Below, one piece after another: positions 2,772-60,705 of a stretch of 64,000 nucleotides of DNA (position 1 is its first letter; every line of letters starts with the position of its first letter). The notes beneath the pieces were generated by a model. The model saw only the letters and a list, made by a program, of their open reading frames with translations, was not told the DNA's origin and did not search any database. The translations under genes were made by a program, and so were the position numbers. The stretch lies in the sequence record MK327932.1. One strand, given 5' to 3'. Source of the DNA: Escherichia phage vB_EcoM_G2248.

Positions 2772-3245
2772 CTATTTGTTAAGCCCTTTAAAGCCAAACA
2801 CTTTCTTTAATGCATGTTCGGTGATGATCTTAAACTCCATGTTATGCTTTTGGCATAATTTCACGGCAGCTAACCATTTTTCAGTATTTTTTGTGTATGT
2901 CCATACTTCATGCATATATCGTTGCTTTGTCTTCGCGGTCATTCTTTTTGGCTTTTCCGGTGGCCTTGTCTCTTTAGCTGGTTTAACTTCCCATAAATGC
3001 TCCTTGCCATCATCAAACTTAACGTAAAAATCCATAAAGTATCTGTGTCTTTTTCCGTCTGTTGATGACTCATAAGGAATTACTACGGTCTCAGATCCCC
3101 ATTTTGCAACTCTAGGATTGCGGTCTAGCCACTGCATGATCCATCTTTCCCAGCTTGAACGGTATGTGATCTTACGTATATCCCCTTTATACTTTTCCTT
3201 ATTCTCAGGAACATACTTGCCCTTATAAGTGTTAGATCCTCCCAT
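2772..3245 (-). CDS. 4: gp4 head completion protein
   Basis: 157 aa, divergent from gp53 as in T4; size and synteny. Confidence 0.6.
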   Translation of the reverse strand: MGGSNTYKGKYVPENKEKYKGDIRKITYRSSWERWIMQWLDRNPRVAKWGSETVVIPYESSTDGKRHRYFMDFYVKFDDGKEHLWEVKPAKETRPPEKPKRMTAKTKQRYMHEVWTYTKNTEKWLAAVKLCQKHNMEFKIITEHALKKVFGFKGLNK

Positions 3246-3260
3246 TTTAGCACCCTTTAT

Positions 3261-3268
3261 TATAAATA
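3261..3268 (+). promoter_or_regulatory. T4-type late promoter box TATAAATA upstream of gp53
   Basis: exact TATAAATA ~33 nt upstream of ATG 3301, inside a 12-bp inverted repeat (3245-3256 / 3289-3300). Confidence 0.6.
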
Positions 3269-3300
3269 CATAATACTATTTATCAATTGAGGGTGCTAAA

Positions 3301-3855
3301 ATGCTCTTTTCTTTCTTCCCTGCCATTGAATACAACGGCAAGATGATTACTGACATTGTGCGCAATTACCGCGCATATTTCAACGCAATAATTTCTGATT
3401 ATAACATACAAACATATTACATTCAAGGTAGTCCACGACCGGAACAAGTTGCATATGAAGTATACGGAAACCAACAACTTTATTGGATCTTGCTGATGCT
3501 TAATGACGTATACGATCCGTTCCATGACTGGATCACCGATCAAGAGACAGCATATGAATCAGCCGAACAACGATATGCAAACGTAGGAGGAAATCAAGTA
3601 TTATACCACGTTGATATTGACGGAAACAAGTATTGGAATCTTACCGAATATCCGAAAGGATCAAGCAATTGGTATGATAAAGGGGATATTCATCACCGTT
3701 ATTTGCAGTTTCAGGGTGCATTATCGGCAGTAGACACACTGGAAGATGCGATCCTCCGTAATGAGGAACGACGCAAGATCAAGATCATAGATCCTACACA
3801 AATTAAACAATTTATTAACGCATTCATTCGAGAAATGGAAAAGGCTGATGTGTAA
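3301..3855 (+). CDS. 53: gp53 baseplate wedge protein
   Basis: 184 aa directly upstream of gp5; synteny and size (T4 gp53 196 aa). Confidence 0.6.
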   Translation: MLFSFFPAIEYNGKMITDIVRNYRAYFNAIISDYNIQTYYIQGSPRPEQVAYEVYGNQQLYWILLMLNDVYDPFHDWITDQETAYESAEQRYANVGGNQVLYHVDIDGNKYWNLTEYPKGSSNWYDKGDIHHRYLQFQGALSAVDTLEDAILRNEERRKIKIIDPTQIKQFINAFIREMEKADV

Positions 3856-3866
3856 GGTGATTAATT

Positions 3867-5666
3867 ATGCTAATGTTTAATAACTCCGTTAAATGGTTTA
3901 CCGGAATTGTAGAAAACAGGGAAGACCCATTAATGCTGGGGCGTGTTCAGGTTAGGATTCATGGTATACATCCCTCGCTATCCGCGCACGGTGACATTCA
4001 AGGTCTTCCAACCGAAGATCTATTATGGATTACGCCAGTACAAGATATTACAAGCGCGGCGATCTCCGGTATAGGTCAAAGCCCTACTGGTATTGTTGAA
4101 GGTTCAATGGTATTTGGTTTGGCTTTAGATGAACGTTATTTAAACTGCGTTATTCTGGGTACTATTGCCGGACAATATACAGAGAAACCACTCACTACAG
4201 AAGGTTTTTGCGACCCTTCTGGTGCATATCCTCGTTATATTGGTAATGATGTTAATATTCTTGCTCGTGGCGGTATTAACCCAGAAACCGGACAAACAAC
4301 AAAACCTGATAGTGTCTATATTCGAGATGAAAACACTGGAGTTGCAGTAAATCCAGACGACGAGCCATTAGACCAAATTCCGGTTGATGATAATCCTGAT
4401 TTTACAATAGAAAAAATGCTGCGGGGCGATGAGGGGTATCGCGAGAAATGGTATCTTGATTCAGAAGGATATCCGACAATAGGCATCGGGCATTTGATCA
4501 TTTATAAGAAAACCAGTGATCTTGGTATTATCAATAATGAACTTTCTAAGCTGGTAGGGCGTGAAGTTACAAACGGAAGACTTACCGCCGAAGAAGTTAG
4601 TAAAGTATTTGCTGACGATATAGAAAAGACTCGTCGTGATATGCGCAAACATCCACGAATTGCACCTGTCTATAATAAATGTAATGCCTCACGTCGTATG
4701 GCATTAGAAAATATGGCGTTTCAAATGGGTGTTGGTGGATTGGGTAAATTTAAGAATAGTCTTGCTGCGATGTTAGCGGAAGAATGGAAACAAGCCTATG
4801 ATGGATTACGTCAATCGGTATGGGCTAACCAAACTCCAGGACGCTCCAGCCGTGTTTCTAAAATTATTTTAACTGGTAACTTAGAATCATATGGCGTAAT
4901 TGCTCCAAAGAAAGAGGAATCAATTTCTGATGATCCGCGAGCACGTTTGAGAAATGCCCGTATTGCTGCCTATAAGACGCAGAGAGCAGAAGAAGACCCA
5001 GAAGCACCGTTTACCCCACAAGACACACGAATCATGTTTAAAGAGCCTAAGAGTTCGTATTCTGCTAGGTATCCTTATAACCATGTGTACGAGTCAGAGA
5101 GCGGTCATATTATCGAGATTGATGATACTCCTTCTCATGAGCGATATCATCGTAAACATCCTTCGGGTACATTTGAAGAAACCAGACCGGACGGAACGAG
5201 GGTAGAAAAGATTGAAGGCGATGATTATCTGATCGTTAAACAAGGCCGGAAAGTAAACGTTAAGGGTAATTTGCAAGTTGTTGTTGAAGGTGACGCGCAA
5301 GTTTATTATATGGGTAATGTGATGCAAACCGTTGATGGCAACGTCACTGAATTTATTCGTGGCAATGTTAATCAGACCGTTGAAGGTACTGCTAACATGC
5401 ATGTTGTTGGTGATGTTATCGCACAGCTTGACGCTAATTTGACGGCTAACGTCAAGGGTAATGCTGAATTAATGATCGAGGGTAACACTACCGAAACAAT
5501 TAAAGGTAACTATGATTTAACCGTTGAGGGTAATTTTAATATGACCGTCAATGGCACTAAATCAGATCAGGTTAATGGTGACTGGTCCCGTAATTGTGGT
5601 GCAAGCGTTAAAGATATTGCATCTGGTACAGTTCAAATTGATGGTAGCCGTATTGATTTTGGGTGA
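3867..5666 (+). CDS. 5: gp5 baseplate hub / tail-associated lysozyme (cell-puncturing device)
   Basis: N-terminal OB-like region; T4-lysozyme-like core EKMLRGDEGYREKWYLDSEGYPTIGIGHL; C-terminal VxGN beta-helix repeats. Confidence 0.9.
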   Translation: MLMFNNSVKWFTGIVENREDPLMLGRVQVRIHGIHPSLSAHGDIQGLPTEDLLWITPVQDITSAAISGIGQSPTGIVEGSMVFGLALDERYLNCVILGTIAGQYTEKPLTTEGFCDPSGAYPRYIGNDVNILARGGINPETGQTTKPDSVYIRDENTGVAVNPDDEPLDQIPVDDNPDFTIEKMLRGDEGYREKWYLDSEGYPTIGIGHLIIYKKTSDLGIINNELSKLVGREVTNGRLTAEEVSKVFADDIEKTRRDMRKHPRIAPVYNKCNASRRMALENMAFQMGVGGLGKFKNSLAAMLAEEWKQAYDGLRQSVWANQTPGRSSRVSKIILTGNLESYGVIAPKKEESISDDPRARLRNARIAAYKTQRAEEDPEAPFTPQDTRIMFKEPKSSYSARYPYNHVYESESGHIIEIDDTPSHERYHRKHPSGTFEETRPDGTRVEKIEGDDYLIVKQGRKVNVKGNLQVVVEGDAQVYYMGNVMQTVDGNVTEFIRGNVNQTVEGTANMHVVGDVIAQLDANLTANVKGNAELMIEGNTTETIKGNYDLTVEGNFNMTVNGTKSDQVNGDWSRNCGASVKDIASGTVQIDGSRIDFG

Positions 5667-58581: not shown

Positions 58582-58755
58582 ATTTTTGAAATTAATTCTG
58601 CTTTGATTTCGCAGAGAACATCTAAAGATTTCTCGTCACCCGCTTTTGCTGCTTCTGCTTGCATTTTTGAAATGGCTTCAATCTCAGTGCAATTATAAGC
58701 CGCTTGAACTTTAGCGATTGCGATGATTGCCGATTCGATGGTTAAGTGTTTCATG
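58582..58755 (-). CDS. small hypothetical early protein (57 aa)
   Basis: ATG behind conserved leader and GGAGAA RBS; below ORF-track cutoff. Confidence 0.4.
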
Positions 58756-58786
58756 TTTGATTCTCCTTTCGTTTCGGTATGTGTGC

Positions 58787-58815
58787 ATTATAGGGGATCG
58801 GTGACCCCCTGTCAA
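58787..58815 (-). promoter_or_regulatory. sigma70-type early promoter (TTGACA-N17-TATAAT, minus strand)
   Basis: perfect consensus hexamers; palindromic GC-rich spacer. Confidence 0.65.
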
Positions 58816-58822
58816 CAACTTT

Positions 58823-59341
58823 TTAGTTATTTTTTAATTGTTCATCTTGCAATAATGCAATCACATGCTGGCGATGTTCTTCCGATTGAGGCACACCGAA
58901 AAAGTTTGTTTTGTAGAAATACTCTAATCGGTCTTCTCGTGTGCTCTCTTCCATCATGATCGCGGGTAGTCCGAGATTTCGGAAACGTCGCTTTTCTGCT
59001 GGCGTAAAATCACTGTAATACAACATAGAATCATCATTACCAGCAATGCTAAACTCATCATTCATGAAGGAGAATATTGCGTTTAAACGCTGTTTACCGT
59101 CCACGATTTCGATCTCATAGCGAGAGCCATCATCAATCTTAGCCATTGCGATAGCACCAACCGGAAAATCATTAATCAGGTTTTCGATAAACATACGTTT
59201 GTTTTCGGTGTCCCATACCAAAGGACGCTGATAATCTGGGTTCATGTTGATATATCCATCTTCTAACCACGCCTCATAAACAGAGATGACAAAGTTTTTA
59301 GTATTGGTATAGTAACGGCGTTTAGGCGTTAAACGGTTCAT
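58823..59341 (-). CDS. stand-alone DUF262 (ParB/Srx-like) domain protein
   Basis: PDYQRPLVWD, FIENLINDFPVGAI and EIVDGKQRLNAI match the DUF262 signature (YQR..W / DGQQRL); start at ATG ~59341 preferred. Confidence 0.6.
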   Translation of the reverse strand: MNRLTPKRRYYTNTKNFVISVYEAWLEDGYINMNPDYQRPLVWDTENKRMFIENLINDFPVGAIAMAKIDDGSRYEIEIVDGKQRLNAIFSFMNDEFSIAGNDDSMLYYSDFTPAEKRRFRNLGLPAIMMEESTREDRLEYFYKTNFFGVPQSEEHRQHVIALLQDEQLKNN

Positions 59342-59342
59342 G

Positions 59343-59675
59343 TTATAGTCTCCTGAATGGATCATCACGTAAATCAATATCTTTTAAGAACTCATCCCAT
59401 GAATGGCGGATATTGTTCTTAATTCTCCAGATAAGCGCAGGGATTGAACGCTCTCCCATCTGGAAGTATGGATCATATGATCCGTATGCCCAATATGCTA
59501 CTACAATTCCACAATCAGCGCAATAGTATTCTATTTCACTTGCTGGCGACCAAAGTCCATCAATATGATCGGTGATCTTGCTTTCGATGTTATGGCTATG
59601 ACAATCAGGGCAACGGATGCAATGACCTTGTTTATCGTAATTTGACGTTAGCGAATACTTAAACAATCTCATCAT
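59343..59675 (-). CDS. zinc-finger-like small protein (110 aa)
   Basis: CIRCPDCHSH ... CADCG Cys pairs; overlaps neighbours by 4 nt. Confidence 0.5.
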   Translation of the reverse strand: MMRLFKYSLTSNYDKQGHCIRCPDCHSHNIESKITDHIDGLWSPASEIEYYCADCGIVVAYWAYGSYDPYFQMGERSIPALIWRIKNNIRHSWDEFLKDIDLRDDPFRRL

Positions 59676-60388
59676 AGATCCTTATTTGCTTCAAATACTG
59701 CCTTTGCGAATCCTCGCGGGGTAAGTGACCTGATAGTCTTTGTTTTCGTTCCTTTCCCGCCTAGCTTAGAATGCTGTTTACTGTACCCTTTATTAATCTG
59801 CAAAGGTTTCTTTTCTGGCATTATAAAGCCTTGTCCGGTCCATAAGCAAGTCTTTTTCGGGTACATATCACGGGCGGCAATATACTCAGGAAAAGTAGGA
59901 TGTTTATCATCTTCCGGCAAATAACCGCCATATTCCCACGGATGGAACATATAATCAGGCTTACGCCACATGCTAGAGATAACGCTTACAGGATTCTCTA
60001 TCATGTAGGGAACTCCTAGCCATTCACCCAAATAAGCGGTTATTTTAGCTGCCCTTACATCATGAACTTGAATCAATGGTCCTTGCTCTCGTTTCTTTCG
60101 TTCAAAGTGTGCAGCGCCACTAACAGCTAAATTGGTGCACGGTGGGAATGCAAAGATAATATCCGGTTTCCCCCATTCAAGGTCCATTGCTCTTTCCAGC
60201 CAGTTCAAATCAATCCATGTGTTTACATAGGTAATGTTTGGATGTTCAAATCGGGTATTATACTTTTTGTATGTACCGTGGTCGCCATCGTCAGCATTAA
60301 AGCAGATCACCTTATGACCTGCTTTAGCCCATTCTAACCCCATTATCCCCGATCCGTCAAAGTTGCAGAATATTAATTTTTGTTTCAC
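59672..60388 (-). CDS. minimal C5-methyltransferase-like protein (238 aa; motifs I, IV, VI, no obvious target-recognition domain)
   Basis: FCNFDGSGIMGLEWAKAG (FxGxG), IIFAFPPCTNLAVSG (PC catalytic Cys), YMIENPVSV (ENV-like); GTG start overlapping upstream stop. Confidence 0.5.
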   Translation of the reverse strand: MKQKLIFCNFDGSGIMGLEWAKAGHKVICFNADDGDHGTYKKYNTRFEHPNITYVNTWIDLNWLERAMDLEWGKPDIIFAFPPCTNLAVSGAAHFERKKREQGPLIQVHDVRAAKITAYLGEWLGVPYMIENPVSVISSMWRKPDYMFHPWEYGGYLPEDDKHPTFPEYIAARDMYPKKTCLWTGQGFIMPEKKPLQINKGYSKQHSKLGGKGTKTKTIRSLTPRGFAKAVFEANKDL

Positions 60389-60636
60389 GCTGCCCCCATT
60401 GGTTTGATAGTAACAGAATCTAAAAGACCTTTGTTAGCCAGTTCGCGGCAAGTTTTCAGATCCGCAACTTCCCAGCCAGCCGCAATCAGGTTGTCAATGA
60501 GGCTGTTAGCAACTTCTTCGCTCATGAAAGAGCACTGTTTGCCGATGGTGTAGCGTACACGCTGTAATTTCAGTTTACGGAAGCCTTTAACGTTCAGGTC
60601 TTTAGCGATTTTCTTTGCGGTTTCGATGTTAGCCAT
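60385..60636 (-). CDS. hypothetical 83-aa early protein
   Basis: first gene after promoter 60677-60705; starts MANIE-. Confidence 0.5.
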   Translation of the reverse strand: MANIETAKKIAKDLNVKGFRKLKLQRVRYTIGKQCSFMSEEVANSLIDNLIAAGWEVADLKTCRELANKGLLDSVTIKPMGAA

Positions 60637-60676
60637 TGTTTGATTCTCCTAAGTGGTATCTCGTCTTGATGGTTGC

Positions 60677-60705
60677 ATTGTAGGGGAGTTATCCTCCCCT
60701 GTCAA
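60677..60705 (-). promoter_or_regulatory. sigma70-type early promoter (TTGACA-N17-TACAAT, minus strand)
   Basis: palindromic spacer ggggaggataactcccc; conserved leader. Confidence 0.6.

What the first reader, a model, noticed from the sequence alone, without database searches (positions are those of the whole stretch)
58823..60705. Early four-gene operon: DUF262 (ParB/Srx-like) protein + zinc-finger protein + minimal C5-methyltransferase-like protein
Behind one early promoter (60677-60705) four minus-strand ORFs overlap by about 4 nt each, implying translational coupling: an 83-aa protein, a 238-aa protein with C5-MTase motifs I (FxGxG), IV (PC catalytic Cys) and VI (ENP) but no room for a target-recognition domain, a 110-aa Cys-pair zinc-finger protein, and a ~173-aa stand-alone DUF262 domain (DYQR..VW, DGKQRL). 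DUF262 is normally the N-terminal NTPase module of GmrSD-type modification-dependent nucleases; here it lacks any nuclease partner and is coupled to a truncated methyltransferase-like fold. This combination is not a standard restriction-modification or T4 gene set and could be a novel nucleic-acid modification or anti-defence module.
Basis: partly seen in the sequence, partly recalled or inferred. Interest (0 to 1): 0.8.

Follow-up and report, generated by a model that had tools for sequence, protein, structure and literature searches.

The report
RB49-type phage early accessory gene cassette
This is an early-expressed cassette of four unrelated accessory genes in an RB49-like coliphage; one is a compact cytosine DNA methylase of a phage family already shown to be active, and the four genes are not a conserved system.

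Summary
Four minus-strand ORFs (83, 238, 110 and 172 aa) lie between two consensus early promoters, at 60677-60705 and 58787-58815. Two junctions overlap by 4 nt and the third has a 1-nt gap.

The window is a Krischvirus, 98.8% identical to RB49 genes p190-p187. The promoters are the published PeSL promoter/stem-loop cassettes.

The 172-aa protein is a real compact stand-alone DUF262. It is also a widespread phage family (301 phage genomes). The 110-aa protein is a four-Cys zinc ribbon. The 83-aa protein is restricted to Krischvirus.

The genes are not linked outside Krischvirus. Only 2 of 55 DUF262 loci and 2 of 80 methylase loci carry the partner genes. A diverged metagenomic cassette keeps the other genes but lacks the methylase.

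Verdict: new member of known kinds. The role of the DUF262 protein remains open.

The parts
60677..60705 (-). PeSL early promoter (TTGACA-17-TACAAT) with a G/C stem-loop in the spacer (about 60682-60700); drives the four-gene unit
   Evidence: PeSL elements described in PMC2839356
60385..60636 (-). 83-aa ORFan (RB49p190 homologue, phrog_14908), function unknown, restricted to Krischvirus among sequenced phages
   Evidence: weak PADLOC match to the C-terminal part of RT_UG35 (E 2.6e-5)
59672..60388 (-). 238-aa compact Dcm-like C5-cytosine DNA methyltransferase (RB49p189 homologue, phrog_757); GTG start overlaps the upstream stop (GTGA)
   Evidence: experimental data on the K42 orthologue of the KarlJaspers gene, 10.1101/2023.08.16.553469
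59343..59675 (-). 110-aa four-Cys zinc-ribbon protein (RB49p188 homologue, phrog_2993); ATGA overlap with the methylase stop
58823..59341 (-). 172-aa compact stand-alone DUF262 (ParB/Srx-like, GmrSD_N) protein (RB49p187 homologue, phrog_1583 N-terminal half)
58787..58815 (-). Next PeSL (TTGACA-17-TATAAT plus stem-loop). Its stem-loop is the likely terminator of the unit and its promoter starts the next cassette
   Evidence: terminator activity of PeSL stem-loops reported in PMC2839356

Best explanation
The region is one PeSL-bounded early transcription unit in the hyperplastic (variable) region next to alt in an RB49-like Krischvirus. Host sigma-70 RNA polymerase starts at the PeSL promoter at 60705-60677. 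It reads four tightly packed, probably translationally coupled genes and stops at the stem-loop of the next PeSL.

The four genes are independent accessory genes that ended up next to each other. They are not a dedicated multi-protein machine.

Gene 2 is a functional compact Dcm-like C5-cytosine DNA methyltransferase. It has motif I FxGSG for SAM binding, the catalytic Cys84 in PPC, Glu131 in ENP and Lys178/179. It most likely methylates phage DNA, and host DNA incidentally, soon after infection. The probable site is CCWGG-like, but this is not demonstrated. The gain is protection against 5mC-sensitive type II restriction. The cost is exposure to 5mC-dependent sensors such as retron Ec86 and type IV enzymes.

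Gene 4 is a compact NTP-binding ParB/Srx-like DUF262 protein that acts without a fused nuclease. Gene 3 is a zinc ribbon and gene 1 is an ORFan. Their roles are unknown. My best guess is that they are separate early host-takeover or counter-defence factors.

Shown here: the anatomy, family membership, fold, homology to the KarlJaspers Dcm gene (whose K42 orthologue is a tested enzyme), and the lack of conserved linkage. Inferred: methylase activity and specificity in this phage, termination at the downstream PeSL, and any function of genes 1, 3 and 4.
For: Identity with RB49 p190-p187 is 98.8%. PeSL promoter/terminator cassettes flanking ORFans in RB49/phi1 hyperplastic regions are published, with reporter assays, and both flanking elements match them.

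Independence of the genes. The methylase occurs in 1,521 phage records (Drexlerviridae, Webervirus, rV5-like and others). The DUF262 occurs in 301 (RB43, Slopekvirus, ST64B and others). The Zn ribbon occurs in 292 (Nonagvirus, FelixO1-like). The 83-aa protein occurs only in 56 Krischvirus records. Neighbourhood tests gave 2/55 and 2/80. L007 lacks the methylase. ORF insertions and deletions occur inside the unit. Only the methylase gene has DNA-level similarity outside Krischvirus. Neighbours of DUF262 homologues differ by lineage.
Against: All 56 sequenced Krischvirus genomes keep the four genes together. Their coupled translation would suit a complex, but these genomes are at least 95% identical, so this carries little weight.

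ParB-fold/DNA-methyltransferase fusions are common in phages (PMC12704722). A functional ParB-like/methylase link is therefore not far-fetched.

The target sequence of this methylase family has not been rigorously mapped. In the K42 study, CCWGG was assumed from E. coli Dcm and supported only by msDNA motif mutants.

HPLC/MS of Krischvirus TB34 DNA found no non-canonical nucleoside. Any 5mC is therefore sparse, or the enzyme may be inactive in that setting.

CCWGG is depleted in the window: 33 observed against 65-85 expected. That is not what full self-protection would predict.

Genome-wide co-occurrence, as opposed to adjacency, was checked in only two genomes, one of them (KarlJaspers) over its first 50 kb only.
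Confidence: 0.72

Rival explanations
1. The four proteins form one novel nucleic-acid modification machine. A TRD-less C5-methyltransferase-like catalytic core would be targeted or regulated by the NTP-dependent DUF262 protein and the zinc ribbon. It would install a non-standard or sequence-independent modification on DNA, RNA or nucleotides.
Against: There is no conserved linkage outside Krischvirus. L007 keeps the Zn and DUF262 genes without the methylase. The methylase family works alone: the K42 Dcm, expressed by itself from a plasmid, makes 5mC. TB34 and SAP have base-identical operons, yet TB34 DNA is unmodified. Unrelated small ORFs interrupt the unit in other isolates.
Confidence: 0.06
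2. The compact DUF262 protein, possibly with the zinc ribbon, is a counter-defence factor co-expressed with the methylase. It would shield 5mC-marked phage DNA from host DUF262-based sensors (GmrSD/BrxU-type type IV enzymes, Menshen NsnA). It could do this by competing for modified DNA or by forming inactive hetero-oligomers through the shared ParB/Srx domain.
For: The DUF262 is the modified-DNA-sensing, NTP-binding module of GmrSD, BrxU, SspE and NsnA. The phage protein's best defence-library match is NsnA (E 6e-21) and it also matches PD-T4-2_A. It keeps the YQR and DGxQR motifs but has no effector domain. It is expressed early from the same transcript as a 5mC-producing enzyme. It sits in early or accessory regions in other phages, for example next to Ea22-like genes in ST64B.
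Against: There are no experimental data. 53 of 55 homologue loci have no nearby Dcm-like gene, and ST64B has none in its genome. No model of the protein was obtained (pLDDT 53.5). No literature on phage stand-alone DUF262 function was found.
Confidence: 0.12
3. The DUF262 and zinc-ribbon genes are a split GmrS/GmrD-like type IV nuclease. The phage would use it against competing phages with modified DNA (for example T-even phages), with the zinc ribbon acting as a degenerate HNH nuclease.
For: Two-gene GmrS + GmrD(-like) systems exist. The Zn protein has CxxC...DH...CxxC spacing reminiscent of HNH fingers. The two genes stay together in Krischvirus and in L007.
Against: There is no Pfam, NCBIfam or PADLOC HNH or DUF1524 match even at E <= 1. 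The Asp-His pair is not conserved: it is DQ in JenK1 and absent in FelixO1. Zn homologues occur without DUF262, and DUF262 homologues occur without the Zn protein.
Confidence: 0.04

Closest known systems
Dcm-like C5 cytosine methyltransferase of Drexlerviridae phage K42 / KarlJaspers (Bas06, bas06_0055), the trigger of retron Ec86
   Same: 55% identity over the full length, E 1e-91. The size is the same (236 vs 238 aa). The catalytic Cys, the ENP Glu and the Lys-Lys pair align. The predicted fold is DNMT3-like in both. Both belong to phrog_757.
   Different: The genomic setting differs: a T4-type myovirus PeSL cassette versus a siphovirus early region. Activity and target site are untested for the Krischvirus protein. 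K42 itself was not compared; KarlJaspers, 95.4% identical at genome level, was used in its place.
DNMT3A/DNMT3B catalytic domain and bacterial type II C5 methylases (M.HhaI, M.HaeIII; Pfam PF00145)
   Different: Only about 87 residues lie between ENP and the C-terminal RSLTPRG motif, so there is no HhaI-size target-recognition domain. Sequence similarity to PF00145 is below the curated cut-off (14.4 vs 22 bits). There is no sequence match to any PDB chain.
GmrSD / BrxU / SspE / NsnA DUF262 (ParB/Srx-like NTPase) domains of anti-phage systems
   Same: Pfam GmrSD_N at E 4.4e-20. A profile of the family matches DUF262 chains 9jfl, 20yv and 7p9k. The YQR..W and DGxQR motifs are present.
   Different: There is no DUF1524/HNH nuclease, no ParBDB domain and no ABC-ATPase partner. 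The protein is a 172-aa compact domain with its own invariant C-terminal N-x2-GVPQSEEH motif. It is encoded by phages rather than by defence islands.
Short single-domain ParB-CTPase-fold proteins and ParB-methyltransferase fusions of phages (PNAS 2025, PMC12704722)
   Same: It is a phage-encoded, effector-less ParB-fold protein sitting beside a DNA methyltransferase.
   Different: That survey was built on PF02195, not DUF262. The methylases fused there are N6/N4 types, not C5. Here the two are separate genes and not co-inherited.
PeSL (promoter-early stem-loop) ORFan cassettes of RB49/phi1 (Arbiol et al. 2010; Comeau et al. 2014)
   Same: A sigma-70 consensus promoter with a G/C stem-loop, an AT-rich upstream tract, a downstream Shine-Dalgarno, and flanking non-essential genes that vary between isolates.
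   Different: None of substance. This is one such cassette, carrying four genes instead of one.

Membership tests
C5-cytosine DNA methyltransferase (PF00145-type; phage Dcm-like family phrog_757) | Motif I (FxGxG) SAM-binding loop | tested here: met
   F10, G12, S13 and G14 are invariant in 28 homologues. This also supports the GTG start rather than the internal ATG at codon 16.
C5-cytosine DNA methyltransferase (PF00145-type; phage Dcm-like family phrog_757) | Motif IV Pro-Cys with the catalytic nucleophile, and motif VI ENx glutamate | tested here: met
   P82, P83, C84 and E131, N132, P133 are invariant. They align with C82/E128 of the mutated K42 enzyme.
C5-cytosine DNA methyltransferase (PF00145-type; phage Dcm-like family phrog_757) | Pfam PF00145 score above the gathering threshold | tested here: not met
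   14.4 bits against a 22-bit cut-off, E 0.027, N-terminal 90 residues only. There is no NCBIfam match. The PHROG family match is strong (E 2e-90).
C5-cytosine DNA methyltransferase (PF00145-type; phage Dcm-like family phrog_757) | C5-methyltransferase three-dimensional fold | tested here: met
C5-cytosine DNA methyltransferase (PF00145-type; phage Dcm-like family phrog_757) | Target-recognition domain between motifs VIII and IX | tested here: inconclusive
   About 87 well-conserved residues lie between ENP and RSLTPRG. This is far shorter than in M.HhaI, but the whole active family shares it and DNMT3 is the closest fold. No DNA-bound model was made.
C5-cytosine DNA methyltransferase (PF00145-type; phage Dcm-like family phrog_757) | Demonstrated 5mC formation and a defined target sequence | not testable with these tools
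   This is shown only for the K42 orthologue of the KarlJaspers gene, to which the window protein is 55% identical (LC-MS, catalytic mutant). The target site was not rigorously mapped. TB34 bulk HPLC shows no abundant modification.
GmrSD-type type IV restriction enzyme | N-terminal DUF262 (GmrSD_N) domain with YQR and DGxQR motifs | tested here: met
   PF03235 at E 4.4e-20, 73 bits against a 33.2 cut-off. The motifs are invariant. The family profile matches DUF262 chains in the PDB.
GmrSD-type type IV restriction enzyme | DUF1524/HNH His-Me nuclease domain, fused or encoded by an adjacent gene | tested here: not met
   The protein ends at 172 aa. No nuclease family match was found for any of the four products at E <= 1. 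The zinc ribbon lacks a conserved catalytic His.
ParB/Srx-fold NTP-binding proteins | ParB/Srx fold and NTP binding | tested here: inconclusive
   The assignment rests on sequence-family membership only. The AF2 model was poor (pLDDT 53.5, 9-sequence alignment), so no fold search was run. NTP binding cannot be tested here.
Type II restriction-modification system | A cognate restriction endonuclease next to the methylase | tested here: not met
   No REase-like product lies in or beside the unit. The family is an orphan methylase in 1,521 phage genomes.
PeSL regulatory cassette (RB49/phi1) | A sigma-70 consensus promoter plus a stable G/C stem-loop between or over the hexamers, in an intergenic position with a downstream Shine-Dalgarno | tested here: met
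   matched against the published description.
Conserved multi-gene functional module (operon-level system) | Gene neighbourhood conserved across unrelated lineages | tested here: not met
   2/55 and 2/80 loci, all Krischvirus. L007 lacks the methylase. ST64B and KarlJaspers (first 50 kb of 51.5 kb) each carry one family only.

The most novel reading that the evidence does not exclude
The compact, effector-less DUF262 protein, perhaps together with the adjacent zinc-ribbon protein, could be a new class of phage counter-defence factor. It would neutralise host DUF262-based sensors of modified DNA (GmrSD/BrxU-type type IV enzymes, Menshen). It could work as a decoy on 5mC DNA or as a dominant-negative partner. 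That would let a phage carry a Dcm-like methylase without paying the type IV penalty.
Probability: 0.1. Interest if true: 0.7.

Novelty: new member of a known kind. Interest (0 to 1): 0.27.

Why it matters
The practical value is in annotation and phage-host prediction. RB49-like therapeutic phages carry a probably active Dcm-like methylase. That predicts resistance to some 5mC-sensitive type II enzymes. It also predicts sensitivity to 5mC-dependent sensors such as retron Ec86 and some type IV enzymes.

The one open biological question is what a nuclease-less compact DUF262 does for a phage. The family is sizeable: 301 phage genomes and 457 clusters at 50% identity. It has its own invariant motif (GVPQSEEH) and no assigned function. 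If it turned out to be an inhibitor of DUF262-based immunity, that would be a new anti-defence principle.

As it stands, the four-gene unit is an ordinary mosaic accessory cassette of a well-described type.

Tried and rejected

(2) AF2 of the DUF262 protein with the 9 available homologues gave pLDDT 53.5.

(3) I looked for a universal partner gene of compact DUF262 by clustering the +/-3 neighbours in 55 loci. Only lineage-specific neighbours appeared: Ea22-like genes in ST64B-like prophages, and a 109-aa membrane protein plus a roughly 300-aa protein in RB43/Slopekvirus.

(4) I considered the zinc ribbon as a hidden HNH nuclease. This was rejected because no profile matched and the DH pair is not conserved.

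(5) I considered whether the operon explains the reported difference between Krischvirus SAP (modified DNA) and TB34 (unmodified DNA). It does not, because the operon is identical in both.

(6) The word-index homology search for the Zn protein found only its own cluster. tblastn against phage genomes was needed to find its relatives.

(7) CCWGG counts were taken as a hint to methylase specificity. The site is depleted, but so is CCSGG, so the result is uninformative.

(8) Literature searches for a function of phage stand-alone DUF262 found none.
Full report
WHAT IS THERE

Four minus-strand ORFs fill 58823-60636. The 83-aa ORF is 60385-60636. The 238-aa ORF is 59672-60388 and starts at GTG. The 110-aa ORF is 59343-59675. 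The 172-aa ORF is 58823-59341.

The first two junctions are 4-nt overlaps (GTGA, ATGA). The third is a 1-nt spacer (TAAcATG) preceded by AGGAGA.

A TTGACA-17-TACAAT promoter sits exactly at 60705-60677. A perfect-consensus copy sits at 58815-58787, just after the last stop. Both have a G/C hairpin in the spacer, with folding z-scores of -5.05 and -3.46.

WHERE IT COMES FROM

The stretch is 98.8% identical to Escherichia phage RB49 (genes RB49p190, p189, p188 and p187). It is 95-99% identical to 55 Krischvirus genomes, with one more at 90-95%. It lies next to alt in a hyperplastic region.

The promoter/stem-loop elements are the PeSLs described for RB49 and phi1. These are strong sigma-70 promoters combined with stem-loops that terminate transcription. 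They flank non-essential ORFans and mediate modular shuffling (PMC2839356, PMC4122927).

The unit varies as that model predicts. RB49 and most relatives carry an extra 81-aa ORF (p189.1) between the 83-aa gene and the methylase. That ORF is absent here and in JSE. Phage kaaroe carries an extra 59-aa ORF between the Zn and DUF262 genes.

THE METHYLASE-LIKE PROTEIN

Pfam sees it only weakly (PF00145, 14.4 bits, below the cut-off). NCBIfam and PDB sequence searches find nothing.

It matches PHROG 757 'DNA methyltransferase' at E 2e-90. It has 7,310 homologues in the large protein collection, and all of those listed are 219-259 aa. In a 28-sequence alignment, F10-x-G12-S13-G14, P82-P83-C84-T85, E131-N132-P133, K178 and the C-terminal I-R-S-L-x-x-R-G are invariant. 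The short length is therefore the family norm, not a truncation.

The decisive link is to an experiment. A preprint on retron Ec86 (10.1101/2023.08.16.553469) isolated escape mutants of Drexlerviridae phage K42. K42 is 95.4% identical at genome level to KarlJaspers/Bas06. All escape mutations fell in a 711-bp dcm gene. Expression of that Dcm raised 5mC in msDNA by LC-MS, and a C82A/E128A/K175A/K176A mutant did not. The authors also noted a DNMT3A-like predicted fold.

I fetched KarlJaspers. Its 711-bp 'Dcm-like C5 cytosine methyltransferase' is 55% identical to the window protein over the full length (E 1e-91). The four mutated residues align with C84, E131, K178 and K179.

The family is present in 1,521 phage records: Drexlerviridae, Klebsiella Webervirus, rV5-like, phiKO2, Campylobacter phages and others. 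It is the only part of the region with DNA-level similarity outside Krischvirus. Several public records already label it DNA methyltransferase or Dcm.

Three things remain unproven here: activity in this phage, the target sequence, and the biological pay-off. In the K42 work, CCWGG was assumed from E. coli Dcm and supported only by msDNA motif mutants.

THE DUF262 PROTEIN

It matches Pfam GmrSD_N at E 4.4e-20, and PADLOC NsnA (E 6e-21) and PD-T4-2_A. A family profile reaches the solved DUF262 proteins 9jfl, 20yv and 7p9k.

It has no nuclease. It is a compact version of the whole domain: in related proteins the Pfam match spans profile positions 12-197 within about 130 residues. The close family keeps Y37-Q38-R39, V42-W43, D81-G82-K83-Q84-R85 and a distinctive N146-x2-G-V-P-Q-S-E-E-H156.

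An exhaustive HMMER scan found 457 cluster representatives at E <= 1e-10. Most are either 150-190 aa, or 255-290 aa with an uncharacterised N-terminal extension. tblastn finds the protein in 301 phage genomes, including RB43/RB16, Slopekvirus (KP27, Matisse), the temperate phage ST64B, jumbo phages and Moraxella phages. The structure prediction failed (pLDDT 53.5).

THE ZINC RIBBON AND THE 83-AA PROTEIN

The 110-aa protein (phrog_2993) has homologues in Nonagvirus JenK1, Proteus and Hafnia phages, and FelixO1-like phages. C22, C25, C52 and C55 are invariant. An HNH-like Asp-His between the Cys pairs is not conserved, and no nuclease profile matches.

The 83-aa protein (phrog_14908) is found only in Krischvirus among sequenced phages. 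A 72%-identical copy occurs in one metagenomic contig.

IS IT A MODULE?

I tested linkage from both sides in IMG/VR. Of 55 loci encoding a compact DUF262 relative, only the two Krischvirus contigs have the methylase, Zn or 83-aa genes within 6 kb. Of the 80 best methylase loci, only the same two have a DUF262, by family HMM on six-frame translations.

The contexts of DUF262 relatives in RB43, KP27, Morganella phage Mm5, ST64B and three metagenomic contigs lack both partners, and they differ from each other. The complete ST64B genome has the DUF262 but no Dcm-like gene. The first 50 kb of the 51.5-kb KarlJaspers genome has the Dcm but no DUF262.

Most telling is a diverged metagenomic cassette, L007. 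Its proteins are 57-72% identical to those of the window. It reads 83-aa gene, p189.1 homologue, Zn ribbon, kaaroe_252 homologue, DUF262, with no methylase. The methylase is therefore an independently gained or lost insert in a cassette whose other members also vary.

The universal co-occurrence within the 56 Krischvirus genomes reflects their near-identity, not selection for a complex.

RELATION TO A CURRENT PUZZLE

A 2026 paper (PMC13390438) reports that Krischvirus SAP DNA carries hmC and glucosyl-hmC, although Krischvirus lacks the known pathway genes. The 99.96%-identical TB34 has only canonical bases and is immune to the GmrSD-family enzyme BrxU.

I compared the two across this locus and the operon is identical. 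It cannot explain the difference. TB34 also shows that the operon does not produce bulk modification.

I did find that SAP has a 79-bp tandem duplication of the PeSL immediately downstream of the DUF262 gene. SNP-based comparison can miss this kind of variant. I have no evidence that it matters.

MECHANISM I COMMIT TO

Host RNA polymerase transcribes the unit early from the PeSL promoter. The downstream PeSL hairpin probably terminates it (inferred from published reporter data).

The Dcm-like enzyme methylates cytosine C5 in duplex DNA using SAM through the Cys84 nucleophile. This is inferred from its homology to the KarlJaspers gene, whose K42 orthologue is the tested enzyme. Methylation would give partial protection from 5mC-sensitive restriction, while creating a signal that retron Ec86 and type IV enzymes can sense.

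The DUF262 protein most likely binds an NTP and DNA as other ParB/Srx-DUF262 domains do. Its role is unknown. The most interesting reading still allowed is that it blunts host DUF262-based sensors of modified DNA, and I give that roughly 10%. A dedicated four-protein modification machine is unlikely, at about 6%.

VERDICT

The 'minimal methyltransferase' belongs to a phage Dcm family in which a member has already been characterised. The promoters are known PeSLs. The four-gene combination is a lineage-specific juxtaposition. It is a new member of known kinds, with one open question: the function of compact phage DUF262 proteins.

Noticed in passing
L016 (phage SAP, OZ034687) vs L015 (TB34, OX001802); equivalent to window ~58755-58835: SAP carries a 79-bp tandem duplication of the PeSL immediately downstream of the DUF262 gene, while TB34 has one copy. 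The four/five-gene operon itself is base-identical in the two. SAP is reported to have hmC/glc-hmC DNA and TB34 unmodified DNA, with no SNP lead (PMC13390438). A structural variant like this could escape SNP calling. Relevance is unknown.
   Followed up: partly
window, whole 64 kb: CCWGG is under-represented: 33 observed against about 65 expected from base composition and about 85 from a Markov model. CCSGG is also low (18 vs about 43). This could reflect avoidance of EcoRII/Dcm-type sites, or a general CCNGG bias.
   Followed up: partly
window 60385-60636 (-): The Krischvirus-only 83-aa protein gives a modest PADLOC match (E 2.6e-5) to positions 722-785 of the 938-residue RT_UG35 (DRT) model. 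This may indicate a shared small domain of unknown role.
   Followed up: no
window 58823-59341 (-) and homologues P0122-P0278: Compact DUF262 proteins share an invariant C-terminal motif, N-x2-G-V-P-Q-S-E-E-H. They come in two size classes: about 150-190 aa, and about 255-290 aa with an unannotated N-terminal extension of about 120 aa (no Pfam match).
   Followed up: partly
L018 (FelixO1) 1983-2243; L017 (JenK1) ~2001-2270: The zinc-ribbon homologue in FelixO1 (ORF82) lies directly upstream of, and overlaps, frd (dihydrofolate reductase), which is followed by td (thymidylate synthase). In JenK1 it lies about 1.2 kb upstream of the dUTPase gene, with three small ORFs between. This recurring proximity to nucleotide-metabolism genes was not examined further.
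   Followed up: no
L007 (metagenome contig ERZ27254724 k141_110561) 20-1528: A diverged relative of the cassette (57-72% protein identity) contains homologues of RB49p190, p189.1, p188, kaaroe_252 and p187 in that order, but no methylase. The Zn-ribbon gene there was not called by the source's gene finder.
   Followed up: yes
L011 (KP27) 3004-3918; L009 (Morganella phage Mm5) 2982-3872; L023 +1: In RB43/Slopekvirus-type and Morganella T4-like phages, the compact DUF262 gene is followed, with overlapping stop and start, by a roughly 300-aa protein of unknown function (clustered in 10 of 55 loci). In the Klebsiella/RB43 group it is preceded by a 107-112-aa protein with a C-terminal hydrophobic helix. 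These could be lineage-specific partners.
   Followed up: partly
window 59672-60388 (-), codon 16: Some records (for example kaaroe, 672-nt CDS) annotate the methylase from the internal ATG at codon 16. That start removes the invariant SAM-binding FxGSG motif, so the GTG start used in RB49 is the better call.
   Followed up: yes
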